A DNA stretch of 64,000 bases from positions 29,568,001 to 29,632,000 of the forward strand of contig CP068257.2 in the NCBI GenBank assembly GCA_009914755.4, read 5' to 3'. Below, one piece after another: positions 40,969 through 42,540 of this stretch (the first letter of the stretch is position 1; every line of letters starts with the position of its first letter). The notes beneath the pieces are model-generated. The model was given only the letters and a program-made list of their open reading frames with translations. It had not been told where the DNA came from and did not search any database. The DNA comes from the human T2T-CHM13v2.0 reference genome, Homo sapiens. Both the position numbers and the translations under genes were made by a program.

Positions 40969-41741
40969 ACTGACCCTACAGCTCGGTGAAAGCAGAGATG
41001 AAGGCTAAGGCAGAGATGAAGCTAGTTGCCTGAGTGTTGATCATGTGCTTGAACTTGCAAACTTCTGTTCTTAGGAAAGACTAGGAAACTTATTGCTTCT
41101 GTACTTTTAAGGAAATCTCTCTCTAATAATTAGCTGACTACTAAACTAGCTGAGCAGAGACTTCAGTGGGCACACATAACAAAGCCTAAATATTTCACAG
41201 ATTTTAAGAAAGTCACTAAACAAAGAAGCACTATCACCACCGATAATCAACAACAATAGCAAATCCTGGAGGATGGGAGGTGGATCTGCTTTCAGAGTTG
41301 CCACATTTATATTATTTTAAATGTACAATTTAAACCAAAAAAGTATGAGACATGCAAATAAACAACAAACAACAATAAAGTATGGGCCAGGAATGGTGAT
41401 TCATGCCTATCATCCCAGTGGGTTGGGAGACCAAAATGGGAAGACTGCTTGAAGCCAAGAGTTTGAGACCAGCCTGGGCAACATAGCAAGATTCTGTCTT
41501 TAAAAAATATTTTTAAAAAATCAGCCAGGTGTGGTGGTGTACACCTGTAGTCCCAGCTACTTGAGAGGCTAAGGTGGGAAGATTGCTTGAGTCCAGGAGT
41601 TCAAGGTTACAGTGAGCTATGATTGCACCACTGTACTCCAGCCTGGGTAATAGAGCAAGACCCTATCTCTAAAACAATTAAATAAAGTATGGCCCATATA
41701 TAGAAAAAGAAGTAGTCAATAGAAACTGTCTCAGAAAAGTC
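40969..41741 (+). repeat. Source copy of a locally duplicated segment; its partner is at 42149..42469. This copy contains an intact Alu (41386-41682) with its own TSD.
   Basis: About 200 bp (40972-41172) is roughly 95% identical to 42149-42349. Further blocks (41340-41378, 41417-41448, 41712-41741) reappear in the same order in 42350-42469. Confidence 0.75.
41386..41682 (+). mobile_element. Alu. TSD ataaagtatgg.
   Basis: gccaggaatggtgattcatgcctatcatcccagtgggttgggagacc...; the TSD is at 41375-41385 and 41683-41693. Confidence 0.88.
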
Positions 41742-41897
41742 CCATGTTGAGTGTACTAGACAAAGATTTCAAGCAACTATTTTGAACGTATTCAAAGAAC
41801 TAAAATAAACCATGTCTAAAGAAATAAAGTATGAGGCTAATATCACATTAAATAGAGAATATCAATAAGGAAATATAACTTTTGTTTGAAAGAACCA

Positions 41898-42540
41898 GGC
41901 CAGGCACAGTGGCTCATGCCTGTAATCCCAGCACTTTAGGAGGCTGAGGCAGGAAGATCACTTGAGGCCAGGGGTTTGAGACCACCCTGGGCAATAAAGC
42001 AAGACCTCCATCTCTACAAAAAAATAGAAAAAATTAGCTGGCTGTGGTGGTGCACACCTGTAGCCCCAGCTATTCAGGAGGCTGAGCTGGGAGGATTGCT
42101 CAGCCCAGGAGGCTGAGGCTGCAGTGAGCTGTGATCAGTGCACTACTGACCCTACAGCTCAGTGAAAGCAGAGATGAAGGCTAAGGCAGAGATGGAAGCT
42201 AGTTGCCTGAGCGTTGATGATAGGCTTGAACTTGCAAACTTCTGTTCTTAGGAAAGACTAGGAAACTTATTGCTTCTGTACATTTAAGGAAATCTCTTTC
42301 TAATAATTACCTGACTACTAAACTAGCTGAGCAGAGACCTGGCAATTTATGAGACATGCAAATAAACAATAAACAACAATAAAGTGGGTTGGGAGACCAA
42401 AACAGGAGGACTGCTTCTATTGACATTCTAGTAGTCAATAGAACCTGTCTCAGAAAAGTCAGATCCAAAATCAGTGCACCACTGCACTGCAGCCTGGGGG
42501 ACAGAACAAGACTCTGTCTCAAAAAAAAAAAAAAAAAAAA
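41898..42540 (+). mobile_element. Alu interrupted near its 3' end by a 321-bp insertion (42149..42469). The Alu 5' part is 41898-42148 and the 3' part is 42470-42540.
   Basis: The Alu sequence reads ...gctgcagtgagctgtgatcagtgcactactg, then the insert, then atcagtgcaccactgcactgcagcctgggggacagaacaagactctgtctcaaaaaaa. The 15-mer atcagtgcac(t/c)actg is duplicated at both junctions. Confidence 0.8.
42149..42469 (+). repeat. Rearranged, internally deleted copy of 40969..41741. It is inserted into an Alu and flanked by a 15-bp duplication, atcagtgcac(t/c)actg.
   Basis: See the source-copy feature above. The flanking duplication is at 42134-42148 and 42470-42484. Confidence 0.75.

What the first reader, a model, noticed from the sequence alone, without database searches (positions are those of the whole stretch)
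40969..42484. A rearranged 321-bp copy of sequence 1.2 kb upstream, inserted into an Alu with a 15-bp flanking duplication
The block 42149-42469 reproduces blocks of 40969-41741 in the same order at about 95% identity, with several clean internal deletions. The copy retains a 32-bp chunk from the middle of the Alu at 41386-41682, so it was made after that Alu inserted. The insertion interrupts the 3' end of a different Alu (41898-42540). It is bracketed by a duplicated 15-mer, atcagtgcac(t/c)actg, which looks like a TSD. There is no poly(A) at either junction. The pattern is that of a duplicative insertion, or retroposition of a processed noncoding transcript, rather than simple tandem duplication. 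The mechanism is unclear.
Basis: seen in the sequence. Interest (0 to 1): 0.5.

Follow-up and report, generated by a model that had tools for sequence, protein, structure and literature searches.

The report
Patchwork local duplication inserted in an Alu
An old mutation scar in an intron of TIAM1: a polymerase repairing or replicating a hairpin-prone spot in an Alu copied a 336-bp patchwork of nearby sequence into it, which is a well-preserved example of a known mutational process with no sign of function.

Summary
Window 42145-42460 is a same-order, same-strand patchwork of four blocks (193, 38, 34 and 31 nt; 4.5% diverged) from 40969-41741. That source is the 5'UTR and ORF1 start of an old L1 carrying an Alu. 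One block is private sequence of that Alu. The patchwork splits a second Alu and is bracketed by a 14/15 duplicated 15-mer that the Alu otherwise holds once.

It is not a processed transcript:
- The only clean deletion junction removes 38 nt, has 3 nt of microhomology, and has no splice signal in any register.
- There is no poly(A), no usable AATAAA and no L1 endonuclease site.
- Three junctions carry 9-13 nt of filler. One filler is a reverse-complement copy of the start of the next block. Another matches an 11-mer, unique in the window, 730 bp downstream.
- The outer left junction has 4 nt of microhomology.
- The reconstructed empty site folds into the strongest hairpin of the 29 Alu 3' regions in the window. 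The duplicated 15-mer is 'AT' plus its inner hairpin.

Best reading (about 0.6): serial microhomology-mediated template switching of the MMBIR/FoSTeS or SD-MMEJ kind at a structure-prone Alu, roughly 8-20 My ago. RNA-templated patching (about 0.2) is not excluded. Orthologues could not be retrieved. This is a known kind of event, of low to moderate interest.

The parts
40969..41161 (+). Source block A (L1 5'UTR). Its first 4 nt, ACTG, are microhomology with the departure point in Alu2.
   Evidence: matches 42145-42338 at 95.4%, E 2e-85.
41344..41381 (+). Source block B (L1 sequence up to and into the left TSD of Alu1).
   Evidence: matches 42348-42385, 37/38.
41386..41680 (+). Alu1, inserted in the L1, with a perfect 12-bp TSD at 41374-85 and 41681-92.
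   Evidence: (SRP hit 41524-41671, 71 bits).
41417..41450 (+). Source block C, inside the left arm of Alu1, carrying Alu1-private variants.
   Evidence: D7: 91% to the copy, against 62-71% to other Alu segments; alignment.
41400..41414 (-). Possible inverted template for the mismatch cluster in copy block A.
   Evidence: 14/15, minus strand; only 1 of 27 possible triple substitutions gives such a match, and it is the observed one.
41711..41741 (+). Source block D (L1, just 3' of Alu1). Positions 41715-41724 also served, in reverse complement, as template for filler 2.
41898..42148 (+). 5' part of the interrupted Alu2 (left arm, linker and most of the right arm).
   Evidence: SRP hits 41899-42014 and 42037-42108.
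42116..42126 (+). 5' arm (AGGCTGCAGTG) of the 11-bp outer stem of the reconstructed empty-site hairpin.
   Evidence: dG -19.2 kcal/mol, z -3.9; the strongest of the 29 Alu 3' regions compared.
42134..42148 (+). Left copy of the duplicated 15-mer, ATCAGTGCACTACTG, which is AT plus the inner hairpin CAGTG-CAC-yACTG. Its last 4 nt are shared with source block A.
   Evidence: (D12).
42149..42338 (+). Copy block A'. It has a 1-nt insertion at 42194 and a cluster of 3 mismatches at 42219, 42222 and 42223.
42339..42347 (+). Filler 1, CTGGCAATT. No significant template was found.
   Evidence: P 0.33-0.49; two-tile colinear explanation, P 0.05-0.19.
42348..42385 (+). Copy block B'. It joins C' through 3 nt of microhomology (AGT), deleting 38 nt of the source.
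42383..42416 (+). Copy block C' (the Alu1-derived chunk). At one dinucleotide the source has TG and the copy CA, the two decay products of a CpG.
42415..42429 (+). Filler 2. TTCTATTGAC (42415-24) is the reverse complement of the start of block D and overlaps the end of C' by TT. It is followed by ATTCT. Together with D' it forms a 10-bp hairpin.
   Evidence: I10, I11; P 0.003 near the block ends.
42430..42460 (+). Copy block D'.
   Evidence: 30/31.
42461..42469 (+). Filler 3, AGATCCAAA. With 1 nt on each side it equals the 11-mer at 43212-43222.
   Evidence: the only occurrence in 64 kb; P 0.006-0.009.
42470..42484 (+). Right copy of the duplicated 15-mer, ATCAGTGCACCACTG.
42485..42545 (+). 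3' end and A-tail of Alu2. Positions 42485-42495 (CACTGCAGCCT) are the 3' arm of the outer stem.
43212..43222 (+). Probable template of filler 3 (CAGATCCAAAA), in the ORF1 remnant of the same L1, downstream of the target.
   Evidence: L1 ORF1 identity.

Best explanation
This is a single ancient mutation with no apparent function, made by serial microhomology-mediated template switching of a DNA polymerase.

Proposed course of events (inferred):
1. Replication or break repair failed inside the right arm of Alu2. Private mutations there, including a 3-nt CAG insertion, had created an unusually stable hairpin.
2. A 3' end terminating in ...CACyACTG left its template exactly at the 3' base of the inner hairpin.
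3. It re-annealed through ACTG to the same sequence 1.18 kb upstream and copied 189 nt.
4. With low processivity it hopped forward along the same 0.8-kb stretch, laying down blocks B, C and D. One hop went to the opposite strand (10 nt). Probably one went to a site 730 bp beyond the target (9-11 nt).
5. It returned to Alu2 15 nt behind the point where it had left, so the hairpin sequence was copied twice.

Result: a net gain of 336 bp with the donor intact. By its features the event belongs to the MMBIR/FoSTeS and synthesis-dependent MMEJ family.

Shown directly: the block structure, the junction sequences, the microhomologies, the inverted filler, the target hairpin potential, and the absence of retroposition hallmarks.

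Inferred: the identity of the polymerase, the direction of synthesis, and whether the trigger was a stalled fork or a two-ended break.
For: 1. Four blocks lie in the same order and orientation within 0.8 kb, and the donor is intact. Random ligation of four fragments would give this order and orientation only 1 time in 384.
2. Junction microhomologies are 4 nt (ACTG, outer left), 3 nt (AGT, B to C), 2 nt (TT, C to the inverted piece), and 1 nt on each side of filler 3.
3. Filler 2 contains a 10-mer that is the reverse complement of the first bases of the next block. P is about 0.003 for a match that close to the block ends. So both strands served as template.
4. Filler 3 plus 1 nt on each side is an 11-mer that is unique in the window, at 43212. 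P is 0.006-0.009 within +-2 kb.
5. The only mismatch cluster in block A is reproduced 14/15 by the reverse complement of Alu1 41400-14. This is the pattern described for short template switches (PMC5453318).
6. All templates lie within 2.3 kb of the target.
7. The reconstructed empty site folds at -19.2 kcal/mol (z -3.9). The 28 other Alu 3' regions of the window range from -4.4 to -16.5. The duplicated 15-mer is AT plus the inner hairpin.
8. Published MM-BIR events show the same grammar: inserts of 13 bp to 18 kb (medians 155-234 bp), about half of junctions with 2-3 nt of overlap, 11-16% blunt, 28-38% with unmapped filler, inter-strand and fold-back switches, and repeated return to the same template (PMC13065848). 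Hairpin-forming sequences are reported to drive SD-MMEJ (PMC5728401).
Against: - A 15-bp flanking duplication is also what a staggered nick, as in target-primed reverse transcription, would leave.
- The return junction has only 1 nt of microhomology.
- Filler 1 has no identifiable template.
- The evidence for the 43212 template and for the Alu1-derived mismatch cluster is statistical (P about 0.01-0.04 each, found post hoc), and no outgroup was available to polarise the cluster.
- The region is intronic in TIAM1. A pre-mRNA covering all the templates therefore existed wherever TIAM1 was expressed, and an RNA template cannot be excluded.
- The hairpin argument is post hoc, and every Alu has a weaker version of that stem.
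Confidence: 0.6

Rival explanations
1. RNA-templated patch. A staggered break or pair of nicks in Alu2 was repaired by reverse transcription of a local transcript, either TIAM1 pre-mRNA (minus sense) or an L1-sense read-through RNA. Synthesis was primed by microhomology, and the reverse transcriptase jumped repeatedly along the RNA. This would be a TPRT-like or endonuclease-independent event without a poly(A).
For: - The 15-bp flanking duplication has the geometry of TPRT. The 4 nt of microhomology at one end resembles the 5' junctions of L1 insertions (own knowledge).
- The locus is inside a transcribed gene.
- Templated sequence insertions at breaks are reported to be reduced more than three-fold by RT inhibitors and to derive from transcribed sequence (PMC5110952).
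- All the large blocks have one polarity, as a single RNA would give.
Against: - There is no poly(A), and no AATAAA 10-20 nt upstream of the 3' junction.
- The implied nick sites, 5'-TGAT/CA-3' or 5'-CACTG/CA-3', do not resemble TTTT/A (criteria).
- The donor is 1.2 kb away, whereas reported TSIs come from distant loci.
- Pieces of the opposite polarity need either fold-back on the cDNA or a second RNA of opposite sense.
- Seven or eight template jumps in 336 nt would be unusual for L1 reverse transcriptase (own knowledge).
Confidence: 0.2
2. Fragment capture. A staggered double-strand break in Alu2 was filled in, giving the 15-bp duplication, and several free DNA fragments from the neighbouring region were ligated into it by NHEJ.
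For: - Fillers of 9-13 nt and junctions of 0-1 nt look like NHEJ.
- Class 2 TSIPs show microdeletion, microhomology and non-templated addition.
Against: - Four fragments in genomic order and in the same orientation have a chance of 1/384.
- Fragments of 31-38 nt are very short to be captured.
- The donor is undamaged.
- Two of the three fillers appear to be templated.
Confidence: 0.07
3. A complete copy of about 0.8 kb was inserted and was later eroded by five independent deletions.
For: It cannot be formally excluded without orthologues. The copy is old (4.5% divergence).
Against: - Over the same time the source suffered no deletion at all, and the aligned blocks differ by only a single 1-nt indel.
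- Deletions of 182, 38 and 260 nt, each replaced by filler that is partly templated from the next block in reverse complement, are not what independent decay produces.
Confidence: 0.05
4. Retrocopy of a spliced noncoding transcript.
For: The deletions are colinear and the insert is flanked by a duplication.
Against: - The one clean junction deletes 38 nt, below the minimal intron size (own knowledge), and has no GT-AG, GC-AG or AT-AC on either strand in any of the four registers.
- The other junctions carry filler.
- There is no poly(A) and no L1 endonuclease site.
Confidence: 0.02

Closest known systems
MMBIR / FoSTeS complex templated insertions (including mitotic MM-BIR; PMC13065848)
   Same: - Donor intact, with net gain of sequence.
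- Several short templated segments joined by 0-4 nt of microhomology or by short filler.
- Inter-strand and fold-back switches.
- Repeated return to one template region.
- A structure-prone sequence at the site.
   Different: - It is very small (336 bp) and entirely local (all templates within 2.3 kb).
- It is an old germline-fixed event in a primate intron, not a disease or cancer rearrangement.
- The return point lies 15 nt behind the departure point, which mimics a TSD.
Polymerase theta-mediated end joining / synthesis-dependent MMEJ (PMC2943611, PMC4912351, PMC5728401)
   Same: - Cycles of annealing, short synthesis and dissociation.
- Templated synthesis in cis (snap-back) and in trans, plus non-templated additions.
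- Hairpin-forming sequence next to the break.
- Short duplications of break-flanking sequence.
   Different: Typical TMEJ inserts are a few to tens of nt, copied from within about 100 bp of the break (own knowledge). Here one segment is 189 nt long and its template is 1.2 kb away.
Templated sequence insertion polymorphisms, classes 1 and 2 (PMC5110952)
   Same: - Insertion of a copy of unique genomic sequence with the donor intact.
- The flanking duplication matches class 1.
- The microhomology and filler match class 2.
   Different: - It fits neither class. It has a TSD but no poly(A), no AATAAA and no TTTT/A site.
- The donor is local, not distant.
- The insert is a multi-segment patchwork with inverted pieces.
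Short template switch mutation clusters (PMC5453318, PMC9435742)
   Same: The 10-nt inverted copy that creates a perfect hairpin with the adjacent block, and the 3-substitution cluster explained by a reverse-complement copy of nearby sequence.
   Different: Here these are sub-events inside a much larger duplicative insertion. The candidate template of the cluster is about 365 bp away.

Membership tests
L1 ORF2p-mediated retrocopy / class 1 TSIP | Target-site duplication of at least 5 bp | tested here: met
   The 15-mer at 42134-48 and 42470-84 matches 14/15. It is present once in the excised Alu. The true length is 11-15 bp because of the ACTG overlap.
L1 ORF2p-mediated retrocopy / class 1 TSIP | Poly(A) tract of 10-40 nt at the 3' junction | tested here: not met
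   The junctions read CACTACTG|ACCCTAC and GATCCAAA|ATCAGTG. The longest A run is 4, and there is no T run at the left junction.
L1 ORF2p-mediated retrocopy / class 1 TSIP | Polyadenylation signal AATAAA 10-20 nt upstream of the tail | tested here: not met
   The last 30 nt of the insert (42440-42469) contain no AATAAA. The nearest AATAAA-like strings are about 90-110 nt upstream, at 42361-42381.
L1 ORF2p-mediated retrocopy / class 1 TSIP | Insertion at a 5'-TTTT/A-3' endonuclease site | tested here: not met
   The implied nicked strand reads 5'-TGAT/CA-3' for a sense insert, or 5'-CACTG/CA-3' for an antisense insert.
Processed (spliced) transcript retrocopy | Deletion junctions coincide with GT-AG (or GC-AG, AT-AC) introns | tested here: not met
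   The B to C junction deletes 38 nt, and its registers read AG..CC, GT..CA, TA..AG and AT..GT. The other junctions carry 9-13 nt of filler.
Class 2 TSIP (break patch, NHEJ features) | No TSD; microdeletion, microhomology or non-templated addition at the junctions; donor at a distant locus | tested here: not met
   Microhomology and filler are present. However, there is a 15-bp duplication, no target deletion, and the donor lies 1.2 kb away.
MMBIR / FoSTeS template-switching rearrangement | Microhomology at the breakpoint junctions | tested here: met
   The microhomologies are 4, 3, 2, 1 and 1 nt. The excess over chance is modest, since the expected value per junction is well under 1 nt.
MMBIR / FoSTeS template-switching rearrangement | Two or more templated segments from nearby sequence joined in one event, with the donor retained | tested here: met
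   There are four large blocks plus one or two short templated fillers, all within 2.3 kb, and the donor is intact.
MMBIR / FoSTeS template-switching rearrangement | Switches between strands (inverted segments) | tested here: met
   The 10-mer at 42415-24 is the reverse complement of 41715-24, P about 0.003. A second candidate matches 14/15 to the reverse complement of Alu1 41400-14, P about 0.04.
MMBIR / FoSTeS template-switching rearrangement | Replicative, DNA-templated origin (Pol delta/POLD3/PIF1 or Pol theta dependence) | not testable with these tools
   This needs genetics or a reporter assay. The sequence alone cannot distinguish a DNA template from an RNA template.
Pol theta TMEJ / SD-MMEJ | Secondary-structure-forming sequence at the break that primes or provokes synthesis | tested here: met
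   The empty site folds at -19.2 kcal/mol (z -3.9) and is the strongest of the 29 Alu 3' regions. The breakpoints lie at the base of the inner hairpin.
Pol theta TMEJ / SD-MMEJ | Short templated inserts copied from sequence immediately flanking the break | tested here: inconclusive
   The 15-bp duplication and the 9-13-nt fillers fit. The 189-nt segment copied from 1.2 kb away is larger and more distant than typical (own knowledge).

The most novel reading that the evidence does not exclude
The insert may be a cis RNA-templated repair patch. In this reading a break at a hairpin-prone Alu in a TIAM1 intron was repaired by reverse transcription of the locus's own nascent transcript. Synthesis was primed by 4 nt of microhomology and jumped repeatedly along the RNA. 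The result carries a TSD-like duplication but no poly(A). That would be a third kind of templated sequence insertion, fitting neither class 1 nor class 2, and a natural germline example of transcript-templated break repair in primates.
Probability: 0.15. Interest if true: 0.55.

Novelty: new member of a known kind. Interest (0 to 1): 0.3.

Why it matters
The element has no sign of function. Its value is as a very legible fossil of a complex mutational event. The donor and the product sit 1.2 kb apart in the same window and are only 4.5% diverged, so every junction can still be read. It shows three things:
- A flanking '15-bp TSD' can arise without retrotransposition hallmarks.
- A single event can mimic a 'processed' copy through polymerase hopping.
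- A few private mutations can turn the ordinary 3' stem of an Alu into a strong hairpin that coincides with the breakpoints.

Events like this are easily mis-annotated as retrocopies or as several independent indels. A genome-wide scan for local patchwork duplications with short flanking duplications could measure how often template switching builds new sequence in primate genomes.

Tried and rejected
1. Orthologue or empty-site retrieval. Nothing was found, so the event could not be dated by phylogeny or checked for an empty allele.
   - Exact look-up of the 170-aa ORF spanning the right junction.
   - Protein homology search with the insert-encoded part of that ORF.
   - Two exact-pattern scans of metagenome contigs, one with an Alu2-specific 23-mer left of the insertion and one with a 23-mer shared by source and copy.
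2. Splicing. All registers of the clean junction were tested and rejected.
3. Micro-blocks CCTGG and CAATT(TA) as templates for filler 1. This is not distinguishable from chance, so filler 1 is left unexplained.
4. AGACAAA at 41758-64 as the template of filler 3. It needs a 2-nt insertion and is weaker than the exact 11-mer at 43212, so it was set aside.
5. A second L1 copy as donor. Rejected because the copy contains Alu1-private sequence in the right place and no other similar L1 5'UTR is in the window.
6. An RNA gene or miRNA in the insert. Rfam found only Alu/SRP-related hits, and none inside 42149-42469. The 10-bp hairpin folds at only -8.7 kcal/mol.
7. The first Pfam call, on raw 6-kb translations, failed because of stop codons. 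It was repeated with stops masked.
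Full report
CONTEXT
The window is primate DNA from inside the TIAM1 gene. An ORF at 25320-25667 on the minus strand matches solved TIAM1 PHn-CC-Ex chains (3a8n_A, E 2e-41) and Pfam Tiam_CC_Ex. A second exon-like ORF lies at 51358-51882 on the minus strand. The finding therefore sits in an intron and is antisense to the gene.

The local sequence is an old plus-strand L1. 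With the Alus removed, the frames downstream of 41700 contain L1 ORF1 remnants. Tnp_22_dsRBD scores 25.3 bits, above its cut-off. The Transposase_22 RBD-like domain scores 19.3 bits, just below its cut-off. So 40906-41385 is L1 5'UTR.

Three Alus have inserted into this L1:
- Alu1 at 41386-41680, with a perfect 12-bp TSD, AATAAAGTATGG.
- Alu2 at 41898-42545.
- Alu3 at 42566-42870.

Rfam's SRP model recognises their arms and shows the right arm of Alu2 cut off at 42108.

Repeat finding, BLAST and a global alignment give four colinear blocks on the same strand:

| Block | Source | Copy | Match |
|---|---|---|---|
| A | 40969-41161 | 42145-42338 | 95.4%, E 2e-85, one 1-nt insertion |
| B | 41344-41381 | 42348-42385 | 37/38 |
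| C | 41417-41450 | 42383-42416 | 31/34 |
| D | 41711-41741 | 42430-42460 | 30/31 |

- Block A is the strongest off-diagonal match in the whole 64 kb.
- Block C is Alu1 sequence and carries Alu1-private variants that the neighbouring Alus lack (family D7). The copy was therefore made from this locus after Alu1 had inserted.
- With the insert and one 15-mer excised, Alu2 aligns end to end with Alu1 and Alu3. The 15-mers at 42134-48 and 42470-84 (14/15) are a true duplication of target sequence.
- No poly(A) or poly(T) lies at either junction.
Only one deletion is 'clean'.

JUNCTION ANATOMY
- Outer left. The last four bases of the left 15-mer (ACTG) are also the first four of source block A. This gives 4 nt of microhomology, so the target duplication is 11-15 bp.
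- A to B. 182 nt of source are missing and replaced by 9 nt (CTGGCAATT). No significant template was found.
- B to C. 38 nt are missing with 3 nt of microhomology (AGT). The four possible registers read AG..CC, GT..CA, TA..AG and AT..GT, so there is no splice signal on either strand.
- C to D. 260 nt are missing and replaced by 13 nt. The 10-mer TTCTATTGAC (42415-24, overlapping the end of C by TT) is the exact reverse complement of 41715-24, the first bases of block D. In the product it forms a 10-bp hairpin with D. A match that long within 30 nt of the block ends has P about 0.003.
- Outer right. 9 nt (AGATCCAAA) separate D from the right 15-mer. With one base on each side they form the 11-mer CAGATCCAAAA. 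Its only other occurrence in the window is at 43212-43222, in the ORF1 remnant of the same L1, 730 bp downstream. P is 0.006-0.009 for the 7-kb search space.
- Mismatch cluster. The only cluster in block A (three changes at 42219, 42222 and 42223) turns GATCATGTGC into GATGATAGGC. That matches the reverse complement of Alu1 41400-14 at 14/15. Of the 27 possible triple substitutions at those sites, only the observed one gives such a match.

THE TARGET
The reconstructed empty site folds, with DNA parameters, into two stems:
- an 11-bp outer stem, AGGCTGCAGTG / CACTGCAGCCT;
- an inner hairpin, CAGTG-CAC-CACTG, stacked on it.

The fold has dG -19.2 kcal/mol and z -3.9 against shuffles. The equivalent 75 nt of the 28 other Alu 3' regions in the window fold at -4.4 to -16.5 kcal/mol (mean -11.6). 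Alu2 is the most stable of the 29. The extra stability comes from private changes in Alu2, including a 3-nt CAG insertion inside the 15-mer.

The duplicated 15-mer is 'AT' plus the inner hairpin. The point of departure (42148) is the 3' base of that hairpin.

WHAT IT IS NOT
- It is not a spliced retrocopy, and splicing cannot produce fillers.
- It is not a classical L1-mediated class 1 templated insertion. Of the four criteria given in PMC5110952, only the TSD is met. There is no poly(A), no AATAAA at the right distance, and the implied nick sites (TGAT/CA or CACTG/CA) do not resemble TTTT/A.
- It is not class 2, because it has a duplication and a local donor.
- It is not random fragment capture. 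Four fragments in genomic order and orientation would occur 1 time in 384, and two of the three fillers look templated.
- It is not later erosion of a full copy. The source has no deletions, and the aligned blocks differ by a single 1-nt indel.

MOST LIKELY MECHANISM (confidence about 0.6)
The best reading is serial microhomology-mediated template switching by a poorly processive DNA polymerase during fork restart or break repair at the Alu2 hairpin.

1. A 3' end leaves at the base of the inner hairpin.
2. It re-anneals through ACTG 1.18 kb upstream and copies 189 nt.
3. It hops forward along the same stretch, once onto the opposite strand, and probably once to 43212.
4. It returns 15 nt behind its point of departure, duplicating the hairpin sequence.

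The same product can be written with synthesis running leftwards. In that case the inverted 10-mer is a simple fold-back on the nascent strand. It can also be written as two 3' overhangs extended separately and joined at the TT/AA overlap. The sequence does not decide between these versions. Homeologous pairing between Alu2 and Alu1, which sits in the middle of the donor, may have brought the end close to its templates. This last point is inference.

The pattern matches what is described for MM-BIR (PMC13065848):
- inserts with medians of 155-234 bp;
- about half of junctions with 2-3 nt of overlap, 11-16% blunt, and 28-38% with unmapped filler;
- inter-strand and fold-back switching;
- repeated return to one template.

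It also matches structure-driven SD-MMEJ and Pol theta snap-back synthesis (PMC5728401, PMC4912351, PMC2943611) and short template switches (PMC5453318).

MAIN RIVAL (about 0.2)
The rival is an RNA-templated patch. The region is transcribed as TIAM1 pre-mRNA. Templated insertions at breaks are reported to be RT-inhibitor sensitive. The geometry of the duplication is that of target-primed synthesis.

Against it:
- the local donor;
- the pieces of opposite polarity;
- the number of jumps;
- the absence of every L1 hallmark other than the duplication.

AGE
Source and copy differ at 13 of 289 positions (K2P 0.047), or at 10 if the cluster belongs to the event. At one dinucleotide in block C the source has TG and the copy CA. 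These are the two decay products of a CpG, which was therefore still intact at the time of copying (inference). With neutral rates of 1.2-2.2 x 10^-9 per site per year (own knowledge), this gives roughly 8-20 My. No orthologue could be retrieved to check this.

VERDICT
The 'processed transcript' reading is rejected. The 'duplicative insertion' reading is upheld and refined to a template-switching patchwork at a hairpin-prone Alu. It is a new instance of a known kind of mutation, with no evidence of function. Interest is about 0.3.

Noticed in passing
window 25320-25667 (-) and 51358-51882 (-): Two exon-like ORFs of TIAM1. The first matches PDB TIAM1 PHn-CC-Ex chains at E 2e-41 and Pfam Tiam_CC_Ex. 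The window is therefore part of the TIAM1 gene, transcribed from the minus strand, and the finding is intronic.
   Followed up: partly
window 10195-10954: A long purine-rich low-complexity tract that reads as KERKKERKK... in two frames. It has an internal 90% direct repeat at 10217-10319 and 10404-10503.
   Followed up: no
window 42870-42928: An AT dinucleotide and 17-nt-period microsatellite between the A-tail of Alu3 and the resumption of L1 ORF1. It is strongly palindromic (inverted repeats I1-I14).
   Followed up: no
window 40520-40905: An interspersed repeat of another family (…GATACGGTTTGGCTGTGTCCCCACC…ATAAATTACCCAGTCTCGGGTATG…GACTAATACAG) abuts the L1 5'UTR just upstream of the source block. 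Its family was not identified with the tools.
   Followed up: no
window 41374-41385 and 41681-41692: Alu1 is flanked by a perfect 12-bp target-site duplication, AATAAAGTATGG, despite being heavily diverged. Its left arm did not reach E 0.01 against the Rfam SRP model.
   Followed up: yes
window 42307-42819 (-): The event, together with Alu3 and the Alu2 tail, creates a 170-aa open frame on the minus strand, the sense strand of TIAM1. The frame runs across the right junction. No identical or similar protein is in the large protein collection, so it is most likely a chance ORF.
   Followed up: partly
window 39500-39740: Sequence resembling the 3' end of L1 ORF2 on the plus strand lies about 1.2 kb upstream of the L1 5'UTR that served as donor. 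This suggests another, separate L1 fragment. It was recognised by eye only.
   Followed up: no
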